A stretch of 64,000 bases of DNA, from positions 6,040-70,039 of the forward strand of contig JAKLIQ010000011.1 of the NCBI GenBank assembly GCA_022709525.1, in the 5' to 3' direction. This DNA is from Candidatus Omnitrophota bacterium. GTDB lineage: Bacteria > Omnitrophota > Omnitrophia > Omnitrophales > Aquincolibacteriaceae. The notes under the pieces were generated by a model that worked only from the letters and a program-made list of their open reading frames with translations, ran no database searches and was not told the origin of the DNA. A program made the position numbers and the translations under genes. Positions within the stretch are counted from its first letter, which is position 1, and each line of letters opens with the position of its first letter. Shown here in pieces: positions 45,279-64,000 of this stretch.

Positions 45279-45669
45279 TGGTGGAGGTGGCGGGAATTGC
45301 ACCCGCGTCCAAAAGATCCGTCACCAAAGGTTCTCCATGCTCAGTCCCCATTTGATCTGATCCCCCAAACCCATGCGGACAGGAAGTTGAGGGACGATCC
45401 GTCTAAGTCTTTTCTCCGGAACCGACGGCGGATCCCGGAAAGCATCCCGCTAATGTCGTCAGCGGAACTTAGCGGGCGTCGGCCCCGTGACGTCGCTAGC
45501 CCTTAGGCAGCGAGAGGAACGAACACGGGAGCCGAAACCGGCCCAACCGCTCTTTCGTTCCAGCTGAGTTTATCAGCATTTATGGTTTGCCACGTTGATT
45601 TAAGAGGAACCTGACGAACCTCTGCATGCTCCCTTGTATGCCTGATCCCCTGTCGAACCTATTCACCCC
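45279..45669 (-). ncRNA. ssrA: tmRNA (ssrA), about 391 nt
   Basis: 5' GGGGGTGAATAGGTTCGACAGGGG... and 3' ...GGACGCGGGTGCAATTCCCGCCACCTCCACCA. The acceptor stem pairs GGGGGTG with CACCTCC and keeps the G3-U70 alanine identity pair. An internal reading frame ends ...PVFVPLAA-TAA, a typical LAA-type tag end. smpB lies 0.9 kb away. Confidence 0.85.
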
Positions 45670-45772
45670 CAGGAGACTATGGAAAAGAACCAAAAGAAGT
45701 ATACCACCGAAAGACCGCCCGCTCAACTTCGCAAGCCGGCATCCGAAGCGGCAAAAACGGCCGGGTTTGACC

Positions 45773-49896: not shown

Positions 49897-50589
49897 TCAA
49901 AGGATGCTGATGACCGAAAGAATGCGCTCCTGCGTCTGCTGTTCGGCTCGGTAAGAAAAGAATCTCTTGTTTTCGCAAACCGTACAAAAACCCGCGTCAT
50001 CGATCCGGCTTTCCGGCACCCCTCGCTTCATAAGCCGGCTTTTGATCACGCCCACAAGATCCAGATGGCCCTTGGCGGCGTCCCGGGCGTAATAAAACCC
50101 GGGGAAATACCCAAGGAATTCCTTCCCGACCTCATAACAACAGCGGCGGATGGCGGGTCCGATGGCAACCCGAAGATCCTCTGTCTTTGTTCGGTGTTTT
50201 TTCTCAAAAACGTTGAGCGCCTGGCTGATAATGCCGCTTTTAACGCTTTTCCATCCGCCATGAACGATCCCCGCAACGCGGCCAACAGGGTCCCAAAGGA
50301 ACACGGGCACACAATCCGCGGTCCTTATGCCCAGCACGAGACCGCGCGTTTGAGTGATCAGACCATCGGCGGGTGTTTCAAGAAGCGCGGGATCCGCTTT
50401 TTCTGCGGCCACAACGGCTTTGCCATGGACCTGCTTGACCATGACGAGATCCTCAAAACGCAGTCTGAGCCCCTCGAGGAATTCGGCGCGTTTGGAATTG
50501 TCGAACATGCGGGAGTGGAATCCGGCAACAACGCCCTCACCGAAAGATGTGAAGCGGTAAATGCCTTCGGGACCTTCCCGGAGGATCAC
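49897..50589 (-). CDS. pgeF: YfiH/PgeF family (DUF152; purine nucleoside phosphorylase / laccase-domain protein)
   Basis: ...DCVPVFLWDPVGRVAGIVHGGWKS... conserved motifs. Confidence 0.75.
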   Translation of the reverse strand: MILREGPEGIYRFTSFGEGVVAGFHSRMFDNSKRAEFLEGLRLRFEDLVMVKQVHGKAVVAAEKADPALLETPADGLITQTRGLVLGIRTADCVPVFLWDPVGRVAGIVHGGWKSVKSGIISQALNVFEKKHRTKTEDLRVAIGPAIRRCCYEVGKEFLGYFPGFYYARDAAKGHLDLVGVIKSRLMKRGVPESRIDDAGFCTVCENKRFFSYRAEQQTQERILSVISIL

Positions 50590-52751
50590 GGCTTGGGGTC
50601 CGAAGCGGCCTCTTGCGGCGCCCCTTCAAAGAACTTTTCGGCGGTCAGAAGCTTTTCGGCTTTTTGTATTTCGGGATTTTTATGAAAACGATTCCGAATG
50701 GCGCCCCGGTTCAGATAATTATTGATCGCGACAAGGATCATCCCCTGATCCAAAGCATAATATTTCCGGGCCACGCGCCCCGTCGCGACTTCCACGGCAT
50801 CATAAAAACCGTATTCTCCGTAAATATCGTAAAGCTCTTTGAGCTTCCGGAGATTTGAAACCGCTTCTTTGGGCGCGTATTCCAAAGCGATCGCCGAAGC
50901 ATGGGGCGTCACCACTCCGCTTTTATAACCTTTGATCCCCATCGGTTTAGCGCCATATTCGGAATAAGTTCCTCCGGGAACAGCGCACGGGCTCATGCCC
51001 CAGACCGGCATTTTCAGATCTTCTAAGGCATAACGGATCTGGCCCTGTGCGTGCGCCTCGTTGTTGCCGCCCAATCCCCCCGGCGCGAGTTCTTTTTCTT
51101 TTAGCACTACCGAGGGCATAAGCGCCTCAAAAGACGACCCACCCCAACTCGGAACATATTTCAGCCCGTTCCATTCGTAATAACCGCCTTTGTAGACATG
51201 CCCCAACACGGTTTTCTCGACGCGCCCTTTAGGCGTTTGCGATTGCCACTTATAATTTTCCGGAAAGGTCCGGACCGGCCCTAAGAACCAGTGCTCTTCC
51301 GGCACATCCCCGCGGGCAATGGCAAGGTAAGACCCTGCCCGGGGTTCGGCGTAAAAAACGCCATAACGGTAATCGGTATAGACGCCGAGATTGTCATAAA
51401 ACCCGTGATACATCTGCTTTTCCACGGGATCGTAGAAAAAGTTGAAGTTTCCGCGCTTGATGAACTCGGCGGCCGGACCGGACAATTCCTCGGGAAAAGC
51501 GTTCTTGGCGACGTAAAGCCCCAGCATCAGCCAGCCGCTATCCACGAATGAAACAAAGTAGCTCGTCGGATCGAGCAGGGTCGTGTCATAGTAATTGTAG
51601 GGAAAACCGCTTGAATGGAACTTCATTTTTTTCATCACCTCAAGCGTGGCCTTGATCCGGCTGACCGCGTCTTCCCGGGTAATGAAACCGAGATCGTAAG
51701 CGCTCACGACCGACATGAAATAGATCCCGATATTGGTCACATTCGTGTAATCGCCGATCCAGGCGCCCTTCCCGAGCGGCTCTTCTTCGCCCAGCTGGAC
51801 ATTATCGAGCGGCAGGTGGTTTTCCGCATCGATCATCAGATCAAAATATTTCCACGTGTCGCGGGCGATCTCCGTAAGAAAAGCGCGTTCCTCAGCCGGA
51901 GATTCTTTTTTAACGGTCACGACCGAAGGAAAGCCGCGCAACCTTGCCGCTAAGAATTTTTGATATTCCGGACTTTCGAAATGCAGGCTTGTTTTTTCTC
52001 CGGAGCGATGGGGTTGATCCACCGCGCTCGGGCCGGGGGCTCCCGTTTTTACGAACCGGATATTATCCAGATAAATGCGTCCGGTTTTTTGGGTAACGAA
52101 TTTATCGTTAAAAATGATGATCAGCTCATCGAGCGAATCGTAGCTTCGGAGCGGATTTTTCCAGCATTCGGGGTTGGCAAAATCGATCAGGCCGGTCATC
52201 TTGTTGAGAGGGATGCTGACCGTGCTCCATTCCCCCGTCACGGGGACCACCGCGGAACCCTGGATCGTTTCGAGGCATTGCGGCGCATCAAGGCACTTCT
52301 TAAGTTCGAGACGGAATTTTTCTGTGAACCCCTCCTCCGGATCGCCTTTGATCTCAAATTCCAGATGGTCGTATTGGCTCCCATCAAGATCCTTCAGTTT
52401 GGTCCAGAAGCCATTCTGCGCCGGAACATCAGAATCCACGCTGTAGGTAAGCCGCAAAACGCTTGATGCGTTCCCATCCTTCCCCGGCATTTTCACGATC
52501 TTGAGATCGGTGTAAGAGTTATTCGCGTCCGCCGGATTCAGGTTCCAATCGCCGGTCTCCCCTCCGAGATTATTAAGGATCTTGGGGTCTTCCGCCTCAA
52601 AATCAGCGACCATGGCGACTTTGGGAAGATCCGGAGACACCGTCTGCGTCTTGACGTTTTCGATCTTTTCCGGCTCCCGGGGAATATCCGCGGAACAGCC
52701 CGCATGAAAAACCGACAAAAAAATCCCTAAAAATAAGAATATTTTTTTCAT
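50586..52751 (-). CDS. Large lipoprotein, putative carbohydrate-active (six-hairpin glycosidase / DUF3131-like) enzyme
   Basis: Lipobox LSVFHAGCS. The C-terminal ~450 aa has Trp/Tyr-rich segments reminiscent of glucoamylase-like folds. The family call is tentative. Confidence 0.35.
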   Translation of the reverse strand: MKKIFLFLGIFLSVFHAGCSADIPREPEKIENVKTQTVSPDLPKVAMVADFEAEDPKILNNLGGETGDWNLNPADANNSYTDLKIVKMPGKDGNASSVLRLTYSVDSDVPAQNGFWTKLKDLDGSQYDHLEFEIKGDPEEGFTEKFRLELKKCLDAPQCLETIQGSAVVPVTGEWSTVSIPLNKMTGLIDFANPECWKNPLRSYDSLDELIIIFNDKFVTQKTGRIYLDNIRFVKTGAPGPSAVDQPHRSGEKTSLHFESPEYQKFLAARLRGFPSVVTVKKESPAEERAFLTEIARDTWKYFDLMIDAENHLPLDNVQLGEEEPLGKGAWIGDYTNVTNIGIYFMSVVSAYDLGFITREDAVSRIKATLEVMKKMKFHSSGFPYNYYDTTLLDPTSYFVSFVDSGWLMLGLYVAKNAFPEELSGPAAEFIKRGNFNFFYDPVEKQMYHGFYDNLGVYTDYRYGVFYAEPRAGSYLAIARGDVPEEHWFLGPVRTFPENYKWQSQTPKGRVEKTVLGHVYKGGYYEWNGLKYVPSWGGSSFEALMPSVVLKEKELAPGGLGGNNEAHAQGQIRYALEDLKMPVWGMSPCAVPGGTYSEYGAKPMGIKGYKSGVVTPHASAIALEYAPKEAVSNLRKLKELYDIYGEYGFYDAVEVATGRVARKYYALDQGMILVAINNYLNRGAIRNRFHKNPEIQKAEKLLTAEKFFEGAPQEAASDPKP

Positions 52752-53782
52752 AGATAGGCCTTTAATTTGCTCCAGGTGTTCGGCCCCACGATCCCGTCGA
52801 CCGTAAGACCTTTTGCTTTTTGAAAATTCCGGACCGCGGCTTTGGTCCGCTTGCCGTAAAATCCCGTAGGACCTCCCTTAAAATAACCCGCGCGGCCCAG
52901 CGCCTTTTGGATCTTGATCGTTTCTTTGCGCGAAGGCATCTTGGGAGCCGCCGCGATGGGCTTCGGCATCTTTCCCGAAGGGATCGAGGCGATCCGCCTA
53001 AGATCGGACCAAAGATACTGACGGCTTTTACTCCCCATCAGGCCCACAAAGATCGTTTTGCCGCCGGATTGCACGCGGCCCGCGAAACAATGGCGCGCGG
53101 CGCGGGTCCACCCGGTCTTGCCGATCACGCCGGCGGTGCGCCACAACATCTTATTGCAGTTGCTCAAGGGGATCCGCCTTCCCCCGCGGCTGTAGATGAC
53201 CGTTTCTCTTGTCTGAAGCGTGCTGACGATAAAAGGATAACGCGAAGCGGCCACCATGATCTTTGCGAGATCATACGCCGTGGAATATTGACCCGAGGCC
53301 GGAAGTCCGGACGCGTTCACGAAACGTGAATTTTTCCCGCCGATCGCGCGGACTTTCTGGTTCATGAGTTTCGCAAAAGCCGGCCGTGAACCCGCCACAA
53401 TGATCGCCAGCGCTTCCGCCGCGTCGTTGGCGGACTTGATGAGCGCCGCCCTGACGAGGTCCCGGACATAGAACCGCTCGCCTGTTTGCAAACCGATCTT
53501 CGACGGCTGAATGCGGTGCATGCCCGGAGGGATCCGCACTTCTTTATCCAGCGAAAGATGATCCAAAACCACGATGGCAGTCAACAGCTTGGTTGTGCTC
53601 GCCGGCGCCCGCTTGGCATGAGGCGAGCGGGCGTAAAGGACTTGCTGGGTATAGCCGTCCAGCAGGACCGCTGAAGGCGCGACGAGCGTGATCGTTCCCG
53701 CCTGCGCAATGCCCGCGGGAAAAAGCATCGAAACGGAAACAAGGCATGAGATGAAGCAATTCAGGATCTTTTTTTTCATCAT
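52748..53782 (-). CDS. D-alanyl-D-alanine carboxypeptidase (S11 serine peptidase) with C-terminal peptidoglycan-binding domain
   Basis: S-x-x-K (STTK), SxN (SAND) and KTG (KTGWT) motifs. C-terminal PG_binding_1-like LGRAGYFKGGPTGFYGKRTKAAVRNFQKAKGLTVDGIVGPNTW. Confidence 0.8.
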   Translation of the reverse strand: MMKKKILNCFISCLVSVSMLFPAGIAQAGTITLVAPSAVLLDGYTQQVLYARSPHAKRAPASTTKLLTAIVVLDHLSLDKEVRIPPGMHRIQPSKIGLQTGERFYVRDLVRAALIKSANDAAEALAIIVAGSRPAFAKLMNQKVRAIGGKNSRFVNASGLPASGQYSTAYDLAKIMVAASRYPFIVSTLQTRETVIYSRGGRRIPLSNCNKMLWRTAGVIGKTGWTRAARHCFAGRVQSGGKTIFVGLMGSKSRQYLWSDLRRIASIPSGKMPKPIAAAPKMPSRKETIKIQKALGRAGYFKGGPTGFYGKRTKAAVRNFQKAKGLTVDGIVGPNTWSKLKAYL

Positions 53783-53945
53783 CTTTTATGAAAACTCAGA
53801 CCTCGAGATTATCGACCCTTTTTCCGTCTTCAAGAGGGTTTCAAAATGACTCCCTGAAAAAAACGACCCCGGCGTGATTCTCCGCCAGAGAACGGATCCG
53901 CTCGCGCTGTGCGGCGGAGAACACGAATCTTAAAAGCAAGCTTCA

Positions 53946-53990
53946 AAAGGTCGACCCCGGGCAGATTCGAACTGCCGACCCCCTGCTTAG
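53946..53990 (-). other. tRNA-like T-arm plus 3'-acceptor fragment (GGCAG-TTCGAAT-CTGCC-CGGGGTC-G) without a foldable 5' half; candidate att boundary of an integrated element
   Basis: Canonical T-loop TTCGAAT with a 5-bp stem. Upstream sequence cannot form D or anticodon arms or pair with the acceptor strand. Lies 40 bp from the integrase gene. Confidence 0.4.
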
Positions 53991-54033
53991 AAGGTAAATG
54001 CTCTGTCACTCTATCTCGAGGCGCTGTAATAAG

Positions 54034-55278
54034 TTACAATTTCACTAATTTCTTTGGTGTCCAAAAAGTGTCCATCCTAGAGGGAAATCGGCGGCATTTG
54101 ACGGGTAATTCCCGGTATTTGATCCCCCAAACCGTCTCAGGCTCCTTAACCATAAATCTGCCCTTCCCCCCGCCCATGTCTTCCCTGGACTCGGGCATAA
54201 CATCAGATAAATAAACATCCAGTTTCCTGACAGCGGCTAAAAGATGGTCCTGTTGCAGGTGCGTATAGCGGGCAGTAATGGAATACATACCGCCCTTTGT
54301 TTTGTGCCCAAGCAACACCGCGATCGTATAAAGATCCACCCCAAGATGCGCCAAATAACTTGCAAATGTATGCCGTAGATCATGGAAATGCAAGTCATTT
54401 ATCCCCGCGCGGCGAAGCGCCGTCGCGAATGCCTTCCGGGGATTGTAGGAAAAATCAAACGGACCCTTCAGAATCGATTTTACCGTTTCATTGATCGGGA
54501 CATACCGCACTTCCCCGTTCTTGGTCTCGGGAAGGAAAACATAATTCATATCAAGTTTCACGTTCTCGGGGGTCATGCCCTGCATTTCCCCTTTCCTCAT
54601 GCCCGTATTAACGGCGACAAAAATATAATTGCGGAGATCCAAACTGCTCACCTGAAGGAGCTTGATCAATTCTCCTTTGGTTAAAAAACAGCTCCTTGGC
54701 ACCTCTCTAAGGCGTTTGAATCTCGCGGCGGGATTCGGGCCGGCGAATAACGGCGTTTTTTTATTTTCGGGGTTCCGCCATTCATGGATCGCTTTATTGA
54801 ACACCGCGCGCATACAGGAAAGTTCGTGATTGATCGTGGCGGGCTTCGGCCTCATTTCGATCTTCAGTTTTTTTGACACTCTCACGTCTTTTAGACGTTT
54901 CTGTTTATAGGCCTCGACATCCTCGGAGCTGATCTCACTAACCGGCATATCTCCAAAATAATCCGTAAGATGCTTCAACCAGATGGCATCCGTTTTCTCC
55001 CATGATTTTTTACCTGCCAGCTCGCAATGACCGAGATATTTTTCCCCGAGCTCACGGAAAGTCAGATGGCAATCCTTCCGGATATCAAAATACTTGTTTT
55101 CCTTGATCTGAATCTTGCGTTTGCTTAAGAGATCCTCCGCCATCGCCTTATTGGGAGCAGTCTCACGGCGGCGACGGCCGTTAACATAATAATCCACATA
55201 CCAGGTCCCCGCCTTACACTTGGCGCGACCCTCCCGGCACCAGTCACAGGCCCCGCATTTTTTTTGAAAAACGCCCAT
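54034..55278 (-). CDS. int: Tyrosine-type site-specific recombinase / phage integrase
   Basis: HDLRHTFASYLAHLGVDLYTIAVLLGH ... RYTHL (R..H-x-x-R..Y catalytic signature); Cys-rich N-terminus. Confidence 0.85.
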   Translation of the reverse strand: MGVFQKKCGACDWCREGRAKCKAGTWYVDYYVNGRRRRETAPNKAMAEDLLSKRKIQIKENKYFDIRKDCHLTFRELGEKYLGHCELAGKKSWEKTDAIWLKHLTDYFGDMPVSEISSEDVEAYKQKRLKDVRVSKKLKIEMRPKPATINHELSCMRAVFNKAIHEWRNPENKKTPLFAGPNPAARFKRLREVPRSCFLTKGELIKLLQVSSLDLRNYIFVAVNTGMRKGEMQGMTPENVKLDMNYVFLPETKNGEVRYVPINETVKSILKGPFDFSYNPRKAFATALRRAGINDLHFHDLRHTFASYLAHLGVDLYTIAVLLGHKTKGGMYSITARYTHLQQDHLLAAVRKLDVYLSDVMPESREDMGGGKGRFMVKEPETVWGIKYRELPVKCRRFPSRMDTFWTPKKLVKL

Positions 55279-55279
55279 T

Positions 55280-55465
55280 TCAGCCTCTCCCCGTTCTCTT
55301 CTTAAGCTCCCTGAGATCCTCTTCAGTCCAGTAACGATAATTACTCATAGGATCACGCTTCGGCAAAGGGATCTTTCCCGCACGCTCCCAGTTGTAATAG
55401 GAGCTCCGCGGTATCCCGAGCATTTTGACGACTTCATCAAGATAGTAGCGTTTATTTTTTTCCAT
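55280..55465 (-). CDS. AlpA/excisionase-like small HTH protein
   Basis: YYLDEVVKMLGIPRSSYYNWERAGKIP is an AlpA-type HTH. The start codon abuts the integrase gene. Confidence 0.6.
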   Translation of the reverse strand: MEKNKRYYLDEVVKMLGIPRSSYYNWERAGKIPLPKRDPMSNYRYWTEEDLRELKKRTGRG

Positions 55466-55511
55466 ATCGCTCCAGGAGTCCGCTGTAGATTATCAACATT
55501 ATTAAACCTTG

Positions 55512-55730
55512 TCAATCCTTAATTAACCTGACTTTTTTGCTTTCCACCCATTGCGAGATATCCAGAGGATCAAATTTTACCAAGCGTCCCACTTTGACAT
55601 AGGGTATTTGCCGGGCATGAACCCAGCAATACACGGTCTTAACCTTAACCCCAAGACGCTGCGATAACTCGCTTACATTCAGCAACTTCCCCGAAACTTC
55701 ACACCTTGAAATACCGTCTTGCTTATTCAT
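55512..55730 (-). CDS. Excisionase/MerR-like HTH DNA-binding protein
   Basis: LNVSELSQRLGVKVKTVYCWVHARQIPYVKVGRLVKF is an Xis/AlpA-family HTH. Confidence 0.6.
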   Translation of the reverse strand: MNKQDGISRCEVSGKLLNVSELSQRLGVKVKTVYCWVHARQIPYVKVGRLVKFDPLDISQWVESKKVRLIKD

Positions 55731-56118
55731 TTCATGGATAACTCCCTTCTATATAGCAGATAGTCCCTCATGGGACATTGAGTTAAGAAGGGACCGTTCA
55801 ACATTTGCGAACGTTTTTATACTAGAAATAAATTCTTACGAACATCATCCGGAGCCCCTTGGGAGATCCGTTTGGCGCGCAAGCGTTCATAGTGGCCAGT
55901 CGCCCGACAGGAGAGAGCCTATCGGGGATTAAAGGACTATACGGAAACAATTCGCATTTCACACATATTGCGACATAATTGAAATCGGAGCTGTGGCTTA
56001 AGGGGATTCCCTTTCAAATAGATGCTCTCTTCTTTGATTCAGAAGCTGAAAGGACAGCAATCCTTTAAAAGTCAGGGGCGGGTTAAGAACGAATCGATGC
56101 TTCACGTTCGTACGCGGA

Positions 56119-56322
56119 TTATTTTCGATTAAGCGCCGCCGAATAATCACTTCCGGAAATCCACAAAGTGATGTAACCTTCACGAGCAAGCCAACCCAGA
56201 CTCATCATCACGAGTTCGCGAGGGCGCTTCAATTCTTTGGTAAGTTCATCCGCAGTAACGCTTTTCTTACCATCCAGAAACTGCCAAATCTCCCCAGCGA
56301 CAATTCCGATTTCCGTGATCAT
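56119..56322 (-). CDS. Small hypothetical protein, possible winged-helix fold
   Basis: 67 aa; the last gene of a three-gene same-strand operon. Confidence 0.35.
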   Translation of the reverse strand: MITEIGIVAGEIWQFLDGKKSVTADELTKELKRPRELVMMSLGWLAREGYITLWISGSDYSAALNRK

Positions 56323-56420
56323 GAGGAACTCCTACCTGAGACCGAATTCACAACAACACGGACCGCATAGCAAGAAGCGCCTATCAAAGCAGGCTAACCG
56401 TGGCCGCGTTTCGGATTGAA

Positions 56421-56588
56421 TCGTCTATTTCTTGACCAATCTTTCGGCTTCGAGCCAGATCTCCAGATCTTGCCCCTGAACGCGGCCCTTTTTCTCCCAA
56501 AGCTCCTTAGCCTTTTCTCTGATTCGTTCGGTCAGTTCCGCTTCAGTCATTTTTCCTTTTTTAACACCTGAAACCCTTGCCATGTTTT
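56421..56588 (-). CDS. DUF2934-like small protein (55 aa; below the ORF-track size cut-off)
   Basis: Translated by hand: MARVSGVKKGKMTEAELTERIREKAKELWEKKGRVQGQDLEIWLEAERLVKK. The W-EKKGR..G.DL..WLEAE pattern matches the DUF2934 family as remembered. Confidence 0.5.
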
Positions 56589-56660
56589 ACTTCTCCTATG
56601 TTAGATGTTGATAAAGCGTTCAATATTCTTTGTTTTGATTCAGCGTTCTTTTTCCAATAG

Positions 56661-57704
56661 CTACAAGCGCTTTCCTGTTTTGCGGATGGGCGCAGGTCTT
56701 TCTGTGCTGCGGTTCACGATCGGCGTGATCACTCTCTCTTCGATGCCATCCGAAGATTCGGCGTGGCAATCGAAGATGAATTTCCCATCCGGAAGCGCAT
56801 ATCGGAGCGTGAATGTCCCATCCGGGCGGAGCTTTACGGGCCGGCCCTGGATGGTTACGGTCGCGTCCGGTTCCGTGCCGCCGTAAATGATGAGTTCACA
56901 TTCAAGCCAAAAGAAGAATCCTCGCTTTTTGATCTTGACCGGACTTGCCAAACTGGAAACCGCTCCGACACCCGAACCTGAAGTAATGGCGCCTTTCATC
57001 CGCTCTTCCATGAGCATGCGGAGTTCAGCAGAACTTTTGCCGACCTGAAAACCCCCGGAAAGCGCATACATCTTGTCAAAATCAATGCCCATCCATTGTT
57101 CGTCAAGAACCTCGGACATCCCGGCCCGCGGCGTTGTGATGCTATTGGAACGGGCAAGGCGCGCAAAACGGCCGTCCCGGTGAAGCAGGCCAATCTCAAC
57201 AAAGTAGCTCCGGTTAGGTTGGGTATTGATATACCAGCTTGTGGCCATGTTCTGGAGAACAATGTCAAAATAAGGAGGATTATTCGTGCCATTGGTAATA
57301 TCAAAAACCCGAAGGACCGAAACTACACCATCCCAGTTCCCGCCAATTTTCGCAAGGACCTTCTTTTGATGATCTTTCTGGATCTCCCAGTATGAATAGA
57401 TCCAGTAAGGATCGCGCACTAATAAGTAAATCTGATTGTCACCGTAGTTGTCCGGAAGTTCCTGAAGTCGCTGTGAGATTTCTACTTTCGGACTTGATTG
57501 TGTGACCTGATCAGGAGACACAGCAGAGGCGCTGTCTTTGTTCTTCTTTTCGGCAGGTCGGGCAGACGATGTTATTTTTTCTTGCGCGCGGGCCGCTGCG
57601 CGCATCGCAAGTGCACGTCTTTTGTTTGTAACTGTTTCTTCCGGGCCATTCTTCTTGCCAGGTCGCTCTTGGGATTTCTTTTTCCGGCCTTGGAACAAAC
57701 CCAT
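56661..57704 (-). CDS. DUF4912-like protein with a basic low-complexity N-terminus
   Basis: ...LPDNYGDNQIYLLVRDPYWIYSYWEI... resembles the DUF4912 family N-terminal signature as remembered. The rest has no recognisable catalytic motifs. Confidence 0.45.
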   Translation of the reverse strand: MGLFQGRKKKSQERPGKKNGPEETVTNKRRALAMRAAARAQEKITSSARPAEKKNKDSASAVSPDQVTQSSPKVEISQRLQELPDNYGDNQIYLLVRDPYWIYSYWEIQKDHQKKVLAKIGGNWDGVVSVLRVFDITNGTNNPPYFDIVLQNMATSWYINTQPNRSYFVEIGLLHRDGRFARLARSNSITTPRAGMSEVLDEQWMGIDFDKMYALSGGFQVGKSSAELRMLMEERMKGAITSGSGVGAVSSLASPVKIKKRGFFFWLECELIIYGGTEPDATVTIQGRPVKLRPDGTFTLRYALPDGKFIFDCHAESSDGIEERVITPIVNRSTERPAPIRKTGKRL

Positions 57705-57794
57705 TTTACTTCACCTCATCAGGTCAAATTCACAGGTTGTTATACTTAACAAGCATTATAGTATCTTAGCCTTTTATTTCTGAGTAAAAAGTAT

Positions 57795-57808
57795 GCGATA
57801 ATTATCGC
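57795..57808. promoter_or_regulatory. Perfect 14-bp palindrome GCGATAATTATCGC in the AT-rich leader of the DUF4912 operon; candidate operator
   Basis: Seen directly in sequence about 90 bp upstream of the operon start codon. Confidence 0.4.
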
Positions 57809-57965
57809 GCAAAAATTACCCCGATTCACTTTTTCTTCCCACAATCCAATGTCATAAATTGGGTACTTTGTGACATCCAATAACCCATTCAACCTGCGGA
57901 CCTCGTAGACTTGTTATACAGGATTCCCGACACCATCTATACCCAAGCTCTAAGTTCGCTTAATT

Positions 57966-59759
57966 TTAAAGGCTCCCGAAATATGCTTTAATCTTTTGCG
58001 CCATAAGTTTACGTCGCTCTATTAGAAATTCGGGGTAATCTTCTAACGACATCTCCCCCATAATTTGAGGGATGCAGTGCATCTTTAGATTTTCTTTTAG
58101 CTCATTCTGCTCGGTAAGATTCCCATACCGTTTTTTCCCACCTTTGCATTGATCCAAAAGATGCCCGAAATAAACCCTGGGTTCCTTGTTCCCAATCGCT
58201 ATGTTGATCTCGCTTTGCGTCACTGCGTAATTGGCAATCTGATTATATTGCCCCCGACTCAAACCATTCTTTTTAAGACAGTCCTTCGGGAAAAGATGGT
58301 GAACATCGGACTTCACCTCAATGAGCTCACGAACCGTAATGTCACTTGAAAGGAACCCCTTGTCATTCATCTTGATTTGGGCAGCCAAAAAAACGCAAAA
58401 ATAGGGGCTCGTTGCCACGGAGGTGTCCATTTCTTGAGGAAGCGAAGCATTCCAAAAAGCATCAGATAGTTCACCAGCAATAATGGATTCCGAATAACTC
58501 TTGATCCCTTGCGCGTGAATCTGGCGTATGTCATAGTCAATCATGGACTCCGGCGACCCTGAATACCGACCCGTGAGGACCGACATAACAAACCAGCGGC
58601 GGACATATTTCTCTATATCCGCATCAGGCATATTCTGACTCCTTAAAGTCAAATACAGGATATAGGCAAAGTTAAGAACGTTCTGCGACCCGATCATCGA
58701 CGAATCAACGAAACCTGATGACCTAATAATCATGATGAATCGCTTGAAATGCGTTTCGTTCATGAACCGGGAAATACCTTGTTTTAACCGCTTAAAAGAA
58801 TCCTCCACGATCGTTTCTTCATATTGCTTTGTCTCAAAATTTCGACCGGAGAGCAAGGCAACAAGGTCTTGAAGTTTACCTCGTTTGAATTCGGAGGTAA
58901 AAGCTACGCGAAGCATATCGGTATAGGAGGGGTCATACAGATCATCGTTCTCCCGTTGCATCCAAGACAGCTGGGGAAAAAGCTCGCTACTGGTAAACAC
59001 AGTGTCTTCTTTGATGATCTTGTAAAAATCTGGAGCGACGGCTAGATGGCAAAAGTAGTCGATTGCTTTCCTCAAGGCATTACCACCGTACGTTTCGTTA
59101 ACTGCGATTTTTGACATAGCAAAATCTGCCTGGCTCAACGGGACTCCTTCAGAGTTCACGCGAATAAAGATCTCCGTAACTGTTTCTATGTCCAACTCTG
59201 AGGCAAGTTCAATCAAACCGATTTGATTGCTCGTGATGCCACGCAACAGTTCTAGGCTCCGAAAAACATCGTCCTTTTTAGACTCCGGGTTTTTCTCACA
59301 ATACTTATTCACCAATTCAAACATGCTGGTGTTTGGATCAAAAACAGCTGCAATATCGGGAATCCATGAAACATCTTTAGCGATTGCTGGGTTTGATACT
59401 TCAAATTGATTCTCGAGAGGGTGAAAAGCAATACGAATACGAACCTGCTGATAGTCCTTATTGATTACCTCACGTCCCAGAAGGGACGCCATAAGAGCCG
59501 TAATGCGCTGCTGCCCGTCAATCAGAATACGTTTCCCTGAAGAAGAGGTCCCATCTTTTAGTTTCACATCAGGATTTTTCCAGGCGATCAGATATCCTAT
59601 CGGAAAACCTTCAAATAGAGAGTCGAGAAGGTTTCTGACTTTTGTCGCATCCCATACAAATGGGCGCTGGATCTCAGGAATTGCAATCTCACCCGATTTG
59701 ATCCAAGTAAACAGCGTCTCAATCGGAGGTTGAGTGACAGAATATCGTTGAGTTGGCAT
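57966..59759 (-). CDS. GmrSD-like type IV (modification-dependent) restriction endonuclease (DUF262 N-terminus plus DUF1524 HNH-like C-terminus)
   Basis: N-terminus [45 protein letters not shown] (DUF262 / ParB-like DGQQR: [10 protein letters not shown]). C-terminus DVHHLFPKD (DUF1524 His-Me finger). Confidence 0.75.
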
Positions 59760-59883: not shown

Positions 59884-62800
59884 TTAAATCTTTCCACCAG
59901 AAATATCAAAAAATCGTTCAAAAAAGCGGGTCAGTTTCTCCAAAACACTCTCGCGTTTTTGGGAACGCTCTCCTCCCGGAGAAAAGCGTGATACAGGCGG
60001 CAAAACTTTGGCCAAAGCAGTGCCTGTTGTCGCAACACTGCCGTTACGAAACGCGTTTCGCACAAATTTATAGGTTTCGTCGTGATCGAGATTTTCGTGC
60101 TTAATAATCTCGTCCAGCTCCTCAATCTTTTTCTTTTCCACATACTTCTGCCAGTCTTCATCTACCACTGAATGGGCATCAAGCGAAGCAATAAACTGGT
60201 TGATGAGATCTTTTTTGTTACGCAGCTCAACACTTGAGTCAATTGCCTTGTTAATGTCAACGAGCAGCTCGCGATTCTTAATGTGGTCCTCGTGGTACTT
60301 TTTAACAAGCCCCAAAATATAATCGATGTTGATCTCGATCTGTTTGATCAGCTCCATTTCAAACACAATGTCATCGTTGATATTTTCTTTTTCGCCTTCA
60401 TCTGCCTTGCGAAACTCGTTATAGAGGTCAATGTAGATACTGTGATAATCTTGAATGCCCCGCTCGGTTAAAATTTCGTTGCCGCTAAATTCGTCGAAAG
60501 TCACCAAGATATTTCTCACCCGTAAAATTCCGCCGTAGAGCCTGATAAAATCCTTTTGATTTTGTTCCCCTATAATCCGCTCGCCAACTGGAAATTTCTC
60601 CAAAAGCTCTTTGACCAGACTGGTATACCCCCGGACCTCTCTGTCGCCATCTTTATAGCCGTTGTAGTACTCGTCATAGGTCTTTAAAAGCACAATCCCG
60701 CTGGCTTCTTTATCACCAAAAAGGGCTATGGATTCATTGGTCGCTTTTTCCAGATTGCGGAAGCAAACAATGTTCCCGAATGTTTTGACGGTGTTTAAGA
60801 TGCGGTTCGTGCGCGAGTACGCCTGCAACAAACCATGTAAGCGCAGGTTTTTGTCCACCCACAAGGTGTTAAGCGTTGTAGCGTCAAAACCGGTCAAAAA
60901 CATATTGACCACCAGCAGAATATCCACTTCCCGATTCTTCACCCGCTCGCTGACATCTTTGTAGTAATTCTGAAATTTATCGGAAGATGTGTCATAGGAT
61001 GTCCCAAACATAGCGTTATAGTCTTGGATGGCACCTTCAAGAAAATCCCTTGATCCTTTATCCAATCCGCTGGTGTCTTCGGAGTTTTCATCTGTCACGC
61101 CGTCGATTTCTTCCTCGTTAACGCCAAAGCTGTAAATAAGCGCTATTTTGAGTTTTTTATCGCTCGGCGCCTCTGCCAGCTGTTTTTTGAATTCCGCGTA
61201 GTATTTTTTGGCAACATCAATGGATGAAACGGCAAAAATAGAATTAAACCCCGCCAGCCTGCGATCCCTGAGCTTGTAAAAGCTGTTCCGTTTGGTTTTC
61301 TGATCGAAATGGTCACGGATATATCGGGCAATATTTGTCAAACGCTCTGGCGCGACAAGGGCAGCCTCGCGATCAATATCACGAACTTTCTTGTCTTCGA
61401 TATCCTCGGCTTCATGCACCGTGGAAACATAATCTACTTTGAAGGGCAAAACATTTTTATCGGCAATGGCATCCACAATGGTGTAGGTGTGTAATTTATC
61501 GCCAAAAGCCTGCTCGGTGGTCTTGAAATCGGGCCGTCCGCCTGAGGAGGCGTTCACGGCAAAGATGGGCGTACCGGTGAAGCCGAAAAGATGGTAGTTT
61601 TTAAACGCCTTAGTAATAGCGGCGTGCATTTCGCCAAACTGCGACCGGTGGCACTCATCAAAAATCAGGACGATATGACCGTCAAAGATCGTGTGTCCTT
61701 TATTCCGGCTAATAAACCGATCGAGCTTTTGGATCGTGGTAATAATGATCCGCGAGTTGGAGTCTTCGAGCTGCCGTTTTAATATCGCCGTACTGGTATT
61801 GCTATTGGCCGCGCCTTTCTCGAATTTGTCGTATTCTCGCATGGTCTGATAATCAAGGTCTTTGCGATCAACAACAAAAAGCACCTTGTCGACATAGGGC
61901 AATTTACTTACCAGTTGAGCGGTCTTGAAACTGGTCAAGGTTTTACCAGAGCCGGTAGTGTGCCAGATGTAACCGCCACCTCCCACGGTGCCCAGTTTTT
62001 TATAATTAGTACTGACCTCGATTCTGCTCAATATTTTCTCTGTCGCCACGATCTGATAAGGCCGCATTGCCAAAAGCTGTTTCTCGGTGGTAAACACGCA
62101 ATAGCGGGTGAGGATATTGAGAAGCACATGTTTGGCAAAAAAGGTTTTGGCAAAATCCACGAGATCGGTAATGGGCTTATTGGTTGCATCCGCCCACCAG
62201 CTTGTGAATTCAAAGCTGTTGCTGGTGCGTTTCCCTTTCCTGATAGCGCCTTCGCTTAATTCCTTGATGTGTTCTGAACGTGTGGTATTACTGTAATATT
62301 TGGTATGCGTGCCGTTGGAAATCACAAAGATCTGCACGTATTCAAAAAGCCCTGAGCCCGCCCAAAAACTCTCGCGCTGGTAACGGTTAATCTGATTGAA
62401 CGCTTCCTGAATCGCCACCCCCCGTCGCTTAAGCTCGATATGCACGAGCGGCAGGCCATTGACCAGCACCGTTACATCGTAGCGGTTGGCTCTTCGGCCT
62501 TCCTCGGTGGCGTATTGATTAATTACCTGTAAACTGTTTTCGTGGATTTTGTCTTTGCGGAGTAAATAAACATTTTTAACCGCTCCGTCGTCACGTTTTA
62601 GATTCTTAATGTAGTCTTCCTGAATAGTAGCTGTTTTTTCGGCAATGCTCTGATTGGGATTAGCAATCTCTCCGCCAAAAAACGCTTCCCATTCTGTATC
62701 GGAAAAGGTGAAGTTGTTCAGTTTCTCAAGTTGTTTTCGAAGGTTAAGAACAAGATCAGTTTCGGCGGCAATAGGCAAATACTCGTATGCCTGCGACTTT

Positions 62801-63039
62801 AACTGCTCGATAAAAGCGCGCTCTAATTCCGCCTCGCTCTGGTACGCTTTGGCAGTCCGGTATTCGGCAGCATATTCGGCTACCACTGTGCTTTGCGGGT
62901 TTTCCGCCACCAGCTTGTATTCTCTATTGCTTGGCATATTCTTTTTCCAATGGCTCGAAAGTAAGCAGTTTGCCTCGGTAGTATTCGTATTGCTTTCTTC
63001 GAGCATTAAGTTCCGCAGGCAAACCGGCTGACAAGTCAT
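59884..63039 (-). CDS. hsdR: Type I restriction enzyme R subunit HsdR
   Basis: 1051 aa. N-terminal nuclease region, SF2 helicase motifs TTGSGKT (motif I) and DECHRSQ (motif II), C-terminal HsdR domain. Confidence 0.85.
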   Translation of the reverse strand: MTCQPVCLRNLMLEESNTNTTEANCLLSSHWKKNMPSNREYKLVAENPQSTVVAEYAAEYRTAKAYQSEAELERAFIEQLKSQAYEYLPIAAETDLVLNLRKQLEKLNNFTFSDTEWEAFFGGEIANPNQSIAEKTATIQEDYIKNLKRDDGAVKNVYLLRKDKIHENSLQVINQYATEEGRRANRYDVTVLVNGLPLVHIELKRRGVAIQEAFNQINRYQRESFWAGSGLFEYVQIFVISNGTHTKYYSNTTRSEHIKELSEGAIRKGKRTSNSFEFTSWWADATNKPITDLVDFAKTFFAKHVLLNILTRYCVFTTEKQLLAMRPYQIVATEKILSRIEVSTNYKKLGTVGGGGYIWHTTGSGKTLTSFKTAQLVSKLPYVDKVLFVVDRKDLDYQTMREYDKFEKGAANSNTSTAILKRQLEDSNSRIIITTIQKLDRFISRNKGHTIFDGHIVLIFDECHRSQFGEMHAAITKAFKNYHLFGFTGTPIFAVNASSGGRPDFKTTEQAFGDKLHTYTIVDAIADKNVLPFKVDYVSTVHEAEDIEDKKVRDIDREAALVAPERLTNIARYIRDHFDQKTKRNSFYKLRDRRLAGFNSIFAVSSIDVAKKYYAEFKKQLAEAPSDKKLKIALIYSFGVNEEEIDGVTDENSEDTSGLDKGSRDFLEGAIQDYNAMFGTSYDTSSDKFQNYYKDVSERVKNREVDILLVVNMFLTGFDATTLNTLWVDKNLRLHGLLQAYSRTNRILNTVKTFGNIVCFRNLEKATNESIALFGDKEASGIVLLKTYDEYYNGYKDGDREVRGYTSLVKELLEKFPVGERIIGEQNQKDFIRLYGGILRVRNILVTFDEFSGNEILTERGIQDYHSIYIDLYNEFRKADEGEKENINDDIVFEMELIKQIEINIDYILGLVKKYHEDHIKNRELLVDINKAIDSSVELRNKKDLINQFIASLDAHSVVDEDWQKYVEKKKIEELDEIIKHENLDHDETYKFVRNAFRNGSVATTGTALAKVLPPVSRFSPGGERSQKRESVLEKLTRFFERFFDISGGKI

Positions 63040-63448
63040 TCACCAACGCGTCGAATTTATTGAGAATCGTAGCGATGCGTTCTTGTTCTTCGACCGGAGG
63101 AACACTTATTTGCACTCCCTCTAACTTGCCAACAGCAAGGCCAGGTTGAGCGGATTTAGATGCATACTGATTTAGATTCATCAGTGTGAGCATATGAAAT
63201 GCCCAATCGATATTAACATCGTCGTTGCGGGCAACAACCACCGCATGTTCTGTAGCGTAAAACTTTCCGCGAGTGCGTTGCACATTGCCACAAAGCGCGC
63301 CTTGTCGTCCAATAATCAAATAGTTTCCATCGTGGCTGTAACTTTTAACAAAGCCGCGGACCCCATTTCCACCAAAACACGGATATGGATAACATTCGTT
63401 CTCTTCATTTGCGATTTTGATGGCGGGAATATGCTGACCTGCACGCAT
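62924..63448 (-). CDS. hsdS: hsdS distal half (second target-recognition domain plus C-terminal conserved region). Currently in a different frame from the upstream half and would be fused by a change in SSR copy number
   Basis: The ORF2 frame (lowest codon coordinate 2 mod 3) is open upstream through ...A-R-W-A-T-L-G-E-I-F-N-M... up to the repeat; ARWATLGEI matches the canonical start of a TRD. Conserved ...RRKQYEYYRGKLLTF... region. Confidence 0.75.
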   Translation of the reverse strand: MRAGQHIPAIKIANEENECYPYPCFGGNGVRGFVKSYSHDGNYLIIGRQGALCGNVQRTRGKFYATEHAVVVARNDDVNIDWAFHMLTLMNLNQYASKSAQPGLAVGKLEGVQISVPPVEEQERIATILNKFDALVNDLSAGLPAELNARRKQYEYYRGKLLTFEPLEKEYAKQ

Positions 63449-63462
63449 ATTAAATATCTCTC

Positions 63463-64000
<538 letters not shown>

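What the first reader, a model, noticed from the sequence alone, without database searches (positions are those of the whole stretch)
56119..57870. Uncharacterised three-gene operon (DUF4912-like, DUF2934-like, small wHTH-like) inside a defence island: candidate novel defence module
- Three same-strand genes with no assignable function sit between the integrase and excisionase module and two bona fide restriction systems (GmrSD-like and type I R-M), inside what appears to be a horizontally acquired AT-richer segment.
- The operon has its own AT-rich leader with a perfect 14-bp palindrome GCGATAATTATCGC.
- By guilt of association in a defence island, it is a candidate for an unrecognised anti-phage or anti-MGE system, or for an anti-restriction or regulatory cassette of the island.
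Basis: inference. Interest (0 to 1): 0.55.

Follow-up and report, generated by a model that had tools for sequence, protein, structure and literature searches.

The report
Island-borne glycogen-operon paralogue cassette
The three genes are real and form a small mobile cassette that recurs inside anti-phage defence islands of Omnitrophota bacteria. Two of its proteins are extra copies of helper proteins normally encoded beside a glycogen-branching enzyme, so a defence role is possible but unproven.

Summary
Three minus-strand genes, DUF4912 (56661-57704), DUF2934 (56425-56583) and DUF2582 wHTH (56119-56322), lie in an AT-richer island. The island order is IetAS, type I R-M, GmrSD, trio, two xis-like genes, integrase, then a tRNA-like fragment.

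The defence interpretation is only partly supported.
- **Against:** DUF4912 sits directly upstream of a GH57 glycogen-branching enzyme in 65 of 75 loci from at least nine phyla, and DUF2582 often follows that enzyme. The window trio is a GH57-less paralogue in which DUF2934 occupies the enzyme's place. All three proteins look non-catalytic. The folded part of the trio DUF4912 is as similar to housekeeping copies (83%) as those are to each other. None of the three hits PADLOC, PHROGs, phage or plasmid collections.
- **For:** the roughly 1.9-kb cassette, with its own leader, keeps the same break points in four unrelated flanks. Neighbours of trio loci are strongly enriched in defence and toxin-antitoxin genes (124 PADLOC families against 4 for canonical loci). 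All three genes are under purifying selection. Duplicated trios recombine and swap the cargo between them.

My best reading is a mobile, non-enzymatic accessory or regulatory cassette derived from the alpha-glucan operon. A true defence role has a probability of about 0.25. The 14-bp palindrome is real but is not conserved in related leaders.

The parts
57705..57876 (-). Cassette leader and upstream homology break point. Similarity to L089, L101, L102 and L104 starts at ATGTCAC (57876-57870). It contains a 21-nt box identical in the L089, L091, L092 and L094 leaders (AATTTATGACATTGGATTGTG, 57860-57840), the window-specific palindrome (57795-57808), a conserved box TTTTTACTCAGAAATA (57790-57775), a -10-like TATAAT (57760-57755) and the RBS GAGGTGA.
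   Evidence: The promoter assignment is my inference from the sequence.
57795..57808 (.). Perfect 14-bp palindrome GCGATAATTATCGC followed by a T-run on the minus strand. It is not conserved in orthologous leaders.
56661..57704 (-). DUF4912 protein, 347 aa. It has a basic disordered N-tail (residues 1-87, with a trio-specific helix NKRRALAMRAAARAQEKI), the DUF4912 beta-sandwich (about residues 88-195), a conserved Ser/Gly linker and a C-terminal beta-sandwich (about residues 268-332).
56425..56583 (-). DUF2934 protein, 52 aa, predicted helical. It is 96% identical to the L089-type copies and occupies the position that GH57 holds in the canonical operon.
56119..56322 (-). DUF2582 winged helix-turn-helix protein, 67 aa. 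It belongs to a subfamily 51-99% identical across trio and stand-alone copies, but is only 30-41% identical to the DUF2582 of the GH57 operon.
55960..56118 (-). Conserved non-coding 3' tail of the cassette. The downstream homology break point lies at CAATTATGTCGCAATATGT (ATGTCGC at 55976-55970). No RNA structure signal was found.
55280..55730 (-). Two small HTH_17/MerR excisionase-like genes (55512-55730 and 55280-55465). They are island flank, not part of the cassette.
54034..55278 (-). Tyrosine integrase, 414 aa. It has no homologue in the other trio loci fetched up.
53950..54012 (-). tRNA-like 3' fragment (T-arm GGCAG-TTCGAATC-CTGCC; anticodon-arm-like CCTTCTAAGCAGG). I read it as an att remnant that marks the left end of the island.
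   Evidence: read by eye. Not called by ARAGORN or Rfam. Single copy in L098.
57966..59759 (-). GmrSD_N type IV restriction-like gene (PADLOC HEC-05). It is flank, outside the cassette's homology boundaries.
59884..64000 (-). Type I R-M genes: hsdR, a split hsdS with a tetranucleotide repeat, and the start of hsdM. IetA/IetS follow beyond the window end on the same contig.

Best explanation
**What it is.** The three genes form a discrete cassette of about 1.9 kb with its own leader (window about 55960-57876, minus strand). It is an island-borne, enzyme-less paralogue of the accessory genes of the alpha-glucan (glycogen) branching operon DUF4912 - GH57 branching enzyme - DUF2582. In the cassette a 52-aa DUF2934 helical protein takes the enzyme's place.

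**The proteins.** All three products look like non-catalytic binders.
- The DUF4912 protein has a basic disordered tail and two Ig/FN3-like beta-sandwiches rich in invariant aromatic residues.
- DUF2582 is a winged-helix protein.
- DUF2934 is a short protein that I predict to be a helical hairpin.

**Shown.**
- The cassette moves as a unit between unrelated flanks in one Omnitrophota clade, mostly into defence/toxin-antitoxin islands and integrated elements.
- When two copies are present as direct repeats, they recombine and gain or lose the cargo between them.

**Inferred.**
- The folded part of the trio DUF4912 is indistinguishable from housekeeping copies. It therefore most likely keeps the same biochemical activity: binding alpha-glucan or the branching machinery, supplying the carbohydrate-binding module that GH57 branching enzymes lack.
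- DUF2582 probably acts as its DNA-binding or regulatory partner.
- The trio-specific N-tail and DUF2934 probably redirect or regulate this activity.
- On this reading the cassette is an accessory or regulatory carbon-storage module, and a recombination scaffold, that rides on islands. It is not an immune effector.
For: **Link to the glycogen operon.**
- GH57 lies directly downstream of DUF4912 in 65 of 75 loci with enough flank, with a median gap of 2 nt.
- 56 of 58 of these GH57 genes carry both branching-enzyme fingerprints, HxHLP and EL[FY]GHW (fingerprints as cited in PMC11206854).
- DUF2582 follows GH57 in 27 of 56 loci, and an amylase-like gene and glycogen phosphorylase follow in many.
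- A CBM48-only gene precedes other DUF4912 paralogues.
- The same contig or MAG holds both the canonical operon and the trio, for example JAKJDL010000004.1 with L046 and L075.

**Protein properties.**
- In the folded part of DUF4912, trio-canonical identity is 83% and canonical-canonical identity is 82%. Only two positions are trio-specific. The N-tail is trio-specific.
- The AlphaFold model shows two beta-sandwiches whose PDB matches are all FN3/Ig-like domains.
- Many aromatic residues are invariant.

**Cassette behaviour.**
- The break points are identical in four different flanks.
- dN/dS is 0.02-0.18 for all three genes.
- L181 is a clean hybrid of the two L087 copies, with the crossover inside DUF4912.
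- The trio is often followed by single-domain response regulators, or lies in a two-component/sigma-factor cluster.

**Negative searches.** None of the three proteins hits PADLOC or NCBIfam. DUF4912 and DUF2934 have no PHROGs hit, and DUF2582 has one weak hit of unknown function. DUF4912 has no relative in the plasmid or phage collections, and none of the three has one in IMG/VR.
Against: - No biochemical activity of DUF4912, DUF2934 or DUF2582 has ever been shown. The library holds 2, 5 and 0 papers that mention them, none functional.
- Glucan binding is inferred only from gene neighbourhood and fold.
- A purely metabolic accessory module does not obviously explain the repeated embedding in independent defence islands. 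It also does not explain why the enzyme gene is always left out.
- The model's confidence is moderate (mean pLDDT 57). It is high only for residues 88-195.
Confidence: 0.45

Rival explanations
1. The trio is a new anti-phage (or anti-MGE) defence system. Its DUF4912 and DUF2934 proteins would sense an infection cue, and the wHTH or an unknown host partner would execute the response.
For: - Neighbours of 11 trio loci hit 124 PADLOC families at E<=1e-10, including GajB at 1.9e-172, type I REase/MTase, IetA/S, AbiEii and HEC-05. Neighbours of 11 canonical loci hit 4 weak families.
- The flanking defence genes compared between loci are only 23-29% identical, so the islands are independent.
- At least six of about nine distinct contexts hold defence or toxin-antitoxin genes within 10 kb.
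- The cassette travels as a discrete unit with its own leader.
- It is under purifying selection.
Against: - No nuclease, NTPase, protease, TIR/SIR2, pore or other effector domain was found.
- It is not in PADLOC.
- The folded part of DUF4912 is not diverged from housekeeping copies.
- There are two copies on single contigs and up to five in one MAG bin, which is unusual for a defence system.
- One close relative is flanked by efflux/TetR and LMWPc/ComEC/LeuRS genes.
- Defence islands also collect non-defence cargo.
- My sample of contexts is small and not phylogenetically corrected.
Confidence: 0.25
2. The trio is a backbone or regulatory cassette of integrative elements. The wHTH protein and its partners would control island gene expression, excision or maintenance, and the defence genes would be merely the variable cargo beside it.
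For: - The trio lies within 0.4-3.5 kb of a recombinase in several contexts. Examples are xis-xis-int in the window, sigma/anti-sigma followed by int and HTH_17 then a serine recombinase in L088/L181, a serine recombinase in L006, and an IS3 transposase in L102.
- It is frequently coupled to REC domains and sigma factors.
- The conserved leader boxes could be operator sites.
- In L087 and L181 the trio frames slots in which cargo varies between strains.
Against: - The recombinases differ between contexts, and the window integrase has no homologue in the trio loci compared.
- The cassette's break points exclude the recombinase genes.
- No relatives were found on plasmids, in phages or in IMG/VR contigs.
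- A glucan-operon accessory protein has no obvious role in the life cycle of a mobile element.
Confidence: 0.2
3. The trio is a functionless passenger: a decaying partial duplicate of the glycogen operon trapped in an island.
For: - The enzyme gene is missing.
- Divergence within the cassette is mosaic. dS is about 1.0 for DUF4912 but 0.24-0.33 for the other two genes against L089 and L101. This suggests recombination or gene conversion among paralogues.
Against: - All three ORFs are intact with strong ribosome-binding sites.
- dN/dS is 0.02-0.18.
- The trio is conserved in several gene orders and in many samples.
Confidence: 0.05

Closest known systems
DUF4912 - GH57 glycogen-branching enzyme - DUF2582 operon. 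It is conserved in Omnitrophota, and the DUF4912-GH57 pair is also found in Planctomycetota, Verrucomicrobiota, Chlamydiota, Nitrospinota, Thermodesulfobacteriota, Eisenbacteria, Chitinivibrionales and Auribacterota. I found no description of it in the searchable literature.
   Same: - The two flanking gene families are the same and keep the same order around a middle gene.
- The folded part of DUF4912 is about 83% identical to canonical copies.
- Both arrangements occur in the same genomes.
   Different: - The window has no GH57 gene; DUF2934 sits in its place.
- DUF2582 belongs to a different subfamily, 30-41% identical to the operon type.
- The N-terminal tail of DUF4912 is trio-specific.
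- The context is mobile and defence-rich rather than housekeeping.
Candidate defence systems found by guilt by association in defence islands (the approach behind the PADLOC PDC/HEC candidates and similar screens; named from my own knowledge)
   Same: - It is a multi-gene cassette of DUF proteins.
- It recurs next to known systems in independent islands.
   Different: - It has no PADLOC model hit and no recognisable effector domain.
- Its parent Pfam families are mostly housekeeping, so family-level defence scores would be low.
Carbohydrate-binding modules attached to alpha-glucan enzymes, such as the CBM48 of GH13 branching enzymes
   Same: - It has a beta-sandwich fold.
- It carries many invariant aromatic residues.
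- It is tightly coupled genetically to a branching enzyme.
- Small CBM48-only genes precede some DUF4912 paralogues.
   Different: - It has no sequence or profile similarity to any CBM family.
- Binding is untested.
- It is a separate polypeptide with a long basic tail.
Conserved framework genes that flank cargo hot spots in integrative elements and chromosomal defence hot spots (named from my own knowledge)
   Same: Conserved units bracket slots whose defence or toxin-antitoxin content differs between strains, and cargo is lost or gained by recombination between the units.
   Different: Here the framework unit itself is duplicated and relocated, with identical break points in unrelated flanks.

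Membership tests
Pfam DUF4912 (PF16258) | Profile match above the gathering score | tested here: met
   109.6 bits against a cut-off of 29.4; residues 87-202 cover the whole 118-position model.
Pfam DUF2934 (PF11154) | Profile match above the gathering score | tested here: met
   52.4 bits against a cut-off of 22; residues 16-51.
Pfam DUF2582 winged helix (PF10771) | Profile match above the gathering score, and similarity to the solved members 2l01 and 2l02 | tested here: met
   47.2 bits against a cut-off of 24.2. PDB 2l01 at E 4.3e-5 and 2l02 at E 5e-4, both deposited as 'uncharacterized protein'.
Canonical DUF4912-GH57-DUF2582 alpha-glucan operon | GH57 branching-enzyme gene immediately downstream of DUF4912 | tested here: not met
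   My GH57 profile found no ORF anywhere in the window, and DUF2934 follows DUF4912 instead.
Canonical DUF4912-GH57-DUF2582 alpha-glucan operon | DUF4912 protein of the same sequence type as the operon copies | tested here: met
   81-83% identity to the nearest canonical copies over residues 81-340, equal to the spread among canonical copies. The N-terminal 75 residues differ.
Canonical DUF4912-GH57-DUF2582 alpha-glucan operon | DUF2582 of the operon subfamily | tested here: not met
   Only 30-41% identical to operon DUF2582 proteins, against 67-99% to the DUF2582 of other trio cassettes and 51-81% to stand-alone relatives.
Known anti-phage defence systems (PADLOC-DB 2.0.0) | Match of any component to a defence-system protein model | tested here: not met
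   No families at E<=0.1 for all three proteins.
Defence system (operational definition) | Enrichment next to known defence genes in independent contexts | tested here: met
   124 PADLOC families against 4 for neighbours of 11 trio loci and 11 canonical loci. The flanking systems compared are only 23-29% identical. The sample is small and not phylogenetically corrected.
Defence system (operational definition) | Protection against phage when expressed | not testable with these tools
   This needs an experiment, and the host phylum is uncultured.
Type II toxin-antitoxin module | Recognisable toxin domain paired with a small DNA-binding antitoxin | tested here: not met
   No toxin family hit in Pfam, NCBIfam or PADLOC. 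The gene order is permuted between loci.
Phage or plasmid gene | Relatives in phage, plasmid or viral contig collections | tested here: not met
   No hits for DUF4912 in INPHARED, PLSDB or IMG/VR. No IMG/VR hits for DUF2582 or DUF2934. PHROGs gave nothing for DUF4912 and DUF2934, and one weak hit (E 0.003, a family of unknown function) for DUF2582.
Site-specific gene cassette (integron-like) | Conserved recombination core at both cassette ends | tested here: inconclusive
   An ATGTC[G/A]C-like motif lies at both homology break points in the window-order cassettes, but it is degenerate in some copies and absent from the permuted cassettes.

The most novel reading that the evidence does not exclude
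The island-borne trio may be an immune sensor built from a copy of a housekeeping protein. It could act as a decoy or guard version of the glycogen-machinery protein DUF4912 that detects phage interference with the canonical copy. Alternatively, its sugar-binding beta-sandwiches and basic tail could recognise glucosylated phage DNA and work alongside type IV (GmrSD-like) restriction. In both the window and L101 a GmrSD_N gene lies within 3 kb of the trio. The near-identity of the folded domain to the housekeeping paralogue, the trio-specific N-tail and the defence-island enrichment are all compatible with this reading. None of them demonstrates it.
Probability: 0.1. Interest if true: 0.85.

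Novelty: new variant of a known kind. Interest (0 to 1): 0.5.

Why it matters
- **A function for DUF4912.** It ties an uncharacterised family of more than 4,000 clusters at 50% identity to GH57 glycogen-branching enzymes. GH57 branching enzymes lack a carbohydrate-binding module (from my own knowledge). This gives a concrete and testable hypothesis for what DUF4912 does.
- **A caveat for defence screens.** A subfamily of housekeeping-type genes can be strongly enriched in defence islands while its parent Pfam families are not. That situation is missed by family-level guilt-by-association screens, and it is also easy to over-interpret.
- **A mechanism of cargo turnover.** In an uncultured phylum, duplicated cassettes act as homologous-recombination handles that swap defence and toxin-antitoxin cargo.
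- **If the trio is defensive.** It would then be an effector-less, three-DUF system of a new type.

Tried and rejected
- **Palindrome as a conserved operator: rejected.** It is absent from the aligned homologous leaders, and palindromes of this length are not enriched in the window.
- **Structured RNA or terminator in the conserved 3' tail: no support.** The z-score is -0.23 and there is no covariation. Rfam found nothing credible in 53000-58500.
- **DUF2934 as a deletion remnant of GH57: rejected.** My DUF2934 profile hits no GH57 ORF.
- **Trio-type DUF2582 as a trio-specific marker: rejected.** Most metagenome relatives stand alone in a UvrA/ExbBD/CutA1/pilus neighbourhood.
- **Linkage to one integrase family: rejected.** The window integrase has no homologue in the trio loci compared.
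- **Phage or plasmid origin: no hits**.
- **Trio-type DUF4912 as an old, neofunctionalised clade: not supported for the folded domains**. Only the N-tail is trio-specific.
- **Other end of the island: not found.** The 21.8 kb fetched around the trio (L098) holds no intact tRNA-Arg and no second att-like copy.
Full report
**1. What is in the sequence.**

Three ORFs lie on the minus strand at 56661-57704 (347 aa), 56425-56583 (52 aa) and 56119-56322 (67 aa). Each follows a good Shine-Dalgarno sequence: GAGGTGA, AGGAGAAG and GGTAGGAG (read).

They match Pfam DUF4912 (E 1.5e-31), DUF2934 (E 3.9e-14) and the winged-helix family DUF2582 (E 2.5e-12). All three scores are above the gathering cut-offs.

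PADLOC and NCBIfam give nothing meaningful for any of the three. PHROGs gives nothing for DUF4912 and DUF2934, and one weak hit (E 0.003) to a family of unknown function for DUF2582.

- a tyrosine integrase at 54034-55278;
- two HTH_17/MerR excisionase-like genes;
- a GmrSD_N protein at 57966-59759 (PADLOC HEC-05);
- a type I HsdR.

G+C falls from 53.0% to 46.2% at about 54 kb.

**2. The island.**

Best hits show that the organism is a member of Candidatus Omnitrophota. A look-up of the GmrSD protein recovered the source contig as L098, 79.8 kb from a JGI metagenome. On that contig the island continues beyond the window end with hsdS, hsdM, a small HTH gene and an IetA/IetS pair.

Next to the integrase, at about 53950-54012, lies a tRNA-like 3' fragment with a T-arm and an anticodon-arm-like stem. 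Neither ARAGORN nor Rfam calls it. I read it as an att remnant that marks the left end of the island.

The other end is not within the 21.8 kb fetched around the trio. The trio therefore lies inside a genuine integrative defence island.

**3. The palindrome.**

GCGATAATTATCGC occurs once, at 57795-57808.
- The window holds 8 perfect palindromes of 14 bp or more, against 5.5 expected.
- The chance of one in a leader of this size is about 2%.
- In the aligned leaders of the closest homologous cassettes the palindrome is absent. L089 has a different short palindrome there, and L101 and L102 have none.

It is a real feature of this copy, but it is not a conserved operator.

**4. What the gene families normally do.**

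An alignment of DUF4912 homologues (A1) was used to scan one genome per GTDB species.
- In 65 of the 75 loci with enough downstream flank, the next gene is a GH57 glycoside hydrolase. The median gap is 2 nt.
- 56 of 58 full-length copies carry both published fingerprints of GH57 glycogen-branching enzymes, HxHLP and EL[F/Y]GHW (fingerprints from PMC11206854).
- The pair occurs in Omnitrophota, Planctomycetota, Verrucomicrobiota, Chlamydiota, Nitrospinota, Thermodesulfobacteriota, Eisenbacteria, Chitinivibrionales and Auribacterota.
- In Omnitrophota, DUF2582 follows GH57 directly in 27 of 56 loci. It is often followed by an amylase-like gene and glycogen phosphorylase.
- Other DUF4912 paralogues follow a small CBM48-only gene.

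Omnitrophota have been predicted to store glycogen (PMC8542988). The family is large, with 4,294 clusters at 50% identity at E<=1e-10. I found no functional paper on any of the three domains.

**5. The protein.**

The AlphaFold model has mean pLDDT 57, rising to block means of 76-90 for residues 88-195. It shows three parts:
- a disordered Lys/Arg-rich N-tail;
- a beta-sandwich that corresponds to DUF4912;
- a second beta-sandwich at the C-terminus.

All PDB and viral structure matches are generic FN3/Ig-like domains, and none is catalytic. Many aromatic residues are invariant.

GH57 branching enzymes lack the CBM48 module of GH13 enzymes (from my own knowledge). I infer that DUF4912 is a separate glucan-binding or scaffolding subunit. 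This is an inference, not a result.

DUF2582 resembles two solved but uncharacterised winged-helix proteins, 2l01 and 2l02.

**6. The window trio is a GH57-less paralogue.**

The window holds no GH57 gene. The same three families, without GH57, recur in several orders:
- in the window order in L046 and L089-L094, L101, L102 and L104;
- in a permuted order, DUF2582-DUF4912-DUF2934, in L008, L010, L011, L087, L088, L124, L128 and L132;
- as DUF2934-DUF4912 in L006.

The trio and the canonical operon co-exist in the same assemblies, once on the same contig (JAKJDL010000004.1, L046 and L075).

Over the folded part of DUF4912 (residues 81-340), trio and canonical copies are 83% identical. Canonical copies are 82% identical to each other, and only two positions are trio-specific. 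In contrast, the first 75 residues or so are trio-specific, including the helix NKRRALAMRAAARAQEKI.

The trio's DUF2582 is only 30-41% identical to the operon type. A metagenome scan with the trio-type DUF2582 mostly returned stand-alone genes. These are often tandem pairs and lie in a conserved housekeeping neighbourhood of UvrA, a TPR protein, ExbB/ExbD, CutA1, an HTH_17 gene, a PilM-like gene and a secretin. That subfamily is therefore not defence-specific either.

All three trio genes evolve under purifying selection, with dN/dS of 0.02-0.18. Divergence is mosaic: against L089 and L101, dS is about 1.0 for DUF4912 but 0.24-0.33 for the other two genes. This suggests recombination among DUF4912 paralogues.

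**7. The trio is a discrete, relocated cassette.**

DNA similarity between the window and its closest relatives starts and stops at the same points in four unrelated flanks (window, L089/L104, L101, L102).
- Similarity starts about 170-210 bp upstream of the DUF4912 start codon, at an ATGTC[A/G]C motif (window 57876).
- It ends about 150 bp after the DUF2582 stop, at CAATTATGTCGCAATATGT (window about 55960).

The leader shares a 21-nt box that is exact between the window and the L089-type leaders and differs at 2-3 positions in L101 and L102. It also shares a T-rich box and the ribosome-binding site.

A similar short core at both ends could be a recombination site. However, it is degenerate in some copies and absent from the permuted cassettes, so I leave this inconclusive. 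The conserved 3' tail shows no RNA-structure signal.

**8. Where the cassette lands.**

| Locus | Flanking genes |
|---|---|
| Window | IetAS, type I R-M and GmrSD on one side; xis-like genes and integrase on the other |
| L102 | OLD-type TOPRIM ATPase, GajB-like UvrD helicase (Gabija-like), HsdR, two Holliday-resolvase-like nucleases and a nucleotidyltransferase upstream; methyltransferase and IS3 transposase downstream |
| L101 | Phd/ParE, DUF6880, a 733-aa GmrSD_N protein, a WYL regulator |
| L087 and P0021's contig | AbiEi/AbiEii, Fic, BrnT/BrnA, Bro-N, response regulators; then sigma/anti-sigma, a small integrase, a nuclease and a large serine recombinase next to a ComEC fragment |
| P0005's contig | WYL, DUF6361, helicase |
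| L011 | a Schlafen/AlbA_2 protein |
| L089/L104 | RND-type efflux genes and TetR on one side; LMW phosphatase, a ComEC N-terminal fragment, GH35 and LeuRS on the other |

As a crude test I scanned neighbours against PADLOC at E<=1e-10. The 98 neighbours of 11 trio loci matched 124 families. The 117 neighbours of 11 canonical loci matched 4, all weakly.

The GmrSD and HsdR genes next to different trios are only 29% and 23% identical. The islands are therefore independent.

No relatives were found in phage genomes, plasmids or IMG/VR contigs.

**9. Duplicated cassettes exchange cargo.**

L087 carries two trios that are about 90% identical over about 1.55 kb. They bracket about 5.8 kb of cargo.

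L181, from another sample, has a single trio in the same surroundings. It matches copy 1 up to about position 2033, inside DUF4912, and copy 2 from there on. A homologous crossover between the direct repeats therefore removed or added a 7.3-kb unit: the REC-REC-AbiE-Metallophos segment plus one repeat copy.

**10. Interpretation.**

*Shown:*
- The genes are real and under constraint.
- They form a mobile cassette with its own leader.
- Their families are primarily accessory genes of a GH57 branching-enzyme operon.
- The GH57-less trio is strongly associated with defence/toxin-antitoxin islands and integrated elements.
- Duplicated copies mediate cargo turnover.

*Inferred:* the biochemical role.

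I favour a non-enzymatic accessory or regulatory module derived from the alpha-glucan operon that rides on islands (0.45). The folded DUF4912 has not diverged from housekeeping copies, and no effector domain exists. The trio is often wired to response regulators and sigma factors, and the cassette is multi-copy.

The rivals are:
- a genuinely new defence system (0.25), supported by the neighbourhood enrichment;
- an island backbone or regulator (0.2);
- a decaying passenger (0.05), which is unlikely given the selection signal.

**11. Verdict.**

The defence interpretation is partly supported by association, but it is weakened by the housekeeping ancestry and by the lack of any effector.

The most novel reading still open is a decoy/guard or sugar-modified-DNA sensor that works with neighbouring restriction systems. 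I put its probability at about 0.1.

Novelty: a new, enzyme-less, island-borne variant of a conserved but unstudied gene arrangement. Interest: 0.5.

Noticed in passing
window 63477-63567: About 22 tandem copies of a tetranucleotide (CTTG on the plus strand, GCAA/CAAG on the coding strand, giving an ASKQ repeat). They lie exactly at the junction of two half-hsdS ORFs (63463-63972 and 62924-63448). This looks like a slipped-strand phase-variation switch in the specificity gene of the type I R-M system.
   Followed up: partly
window 53950-54012: tRNA-like 3' fragment next to the integrase, with a T-arm GGCAG-TTCGAATC-CTGCC and a possible Arg-TCT anticodon arm. ARAGORN and Rfam do not call it. 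It is probably the att remnant of the island. No second copy lies in the 21.8 kb fetched around the trio.
   Followed up: partly
L098:118-3675 (same contig, beyond window position 64000): An IetA (E 5.8e-76) and IetS (E 1.4e-57) defence pair, plus a small mad1-like HTH gene upstream of hsdM. These extend the defence island beyond the window.
   Followed up: yes
L088:7449-10663, L181, L183, L184; L089:4407-5243, L090, L104: In one set of contigs a large serine recombinase sits directly upstream of a 506-aa ComEC 'Competence' ORF. In another set a 278-aa DUF4131 ORF (the ComEC N-terminal domain) lies near the trio. comEC may be split by an integrated element that carries the trio.
   Followed up: no
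L105-L180 (for example L141, L166, L176, L179): Stand-alone DUF2582 genes, often in tandem pairs, lie in a conserved Omnitrophota neighbourhood: UvrA, a large TPR protein and ExbB/ExbD upstream; CutA1, HTH_17, a PilM-like gene and a secretin downstream.
   Followed up: partly
L004:7584-7958, L036, L038: A small CBM48-only protein (112-124 aa) is encoded directly upstream of a further DUF4912 paralogue that lacks GH57. This is another link between DUF4912 and glycogen binding.
   Followed up: partly
L087:1205-2793 and 8549-10159; L181:1000-2800: Two 90%-identical trio copies lie on one contig. In another sample a single hybrid copy has its crossover inside DUF4912. This is strain-level gain or loss of a 7.3-kb AbiE-containing segment by homologous recombination.
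   Followed up: yes
window 57870-57876 and 55970-55976; L089, L101, L102, L104: An ATGTC[G/A]C-like core lies at both homology break points of the window-order cassette. It could be a site-specific recombination core or it could be chance.
   Followed up: partly
window 50586-52751 and 45279-45670: Outside the island: a 721-aa Glycoamylase/DUF3131 protein, and a tmRNA gene with tag peptide ADKLSWNERAVGPVSAPVFVPLAA.
   Followed up: no
L039:4854-5057: A trio-type DUF2582 copy (72% identical to the window's) lies 4.5 kb upstream of a canonical DUF4912-GH57-DUF2582 operon that has its own operon-type DUF2582.
   Followed up: no
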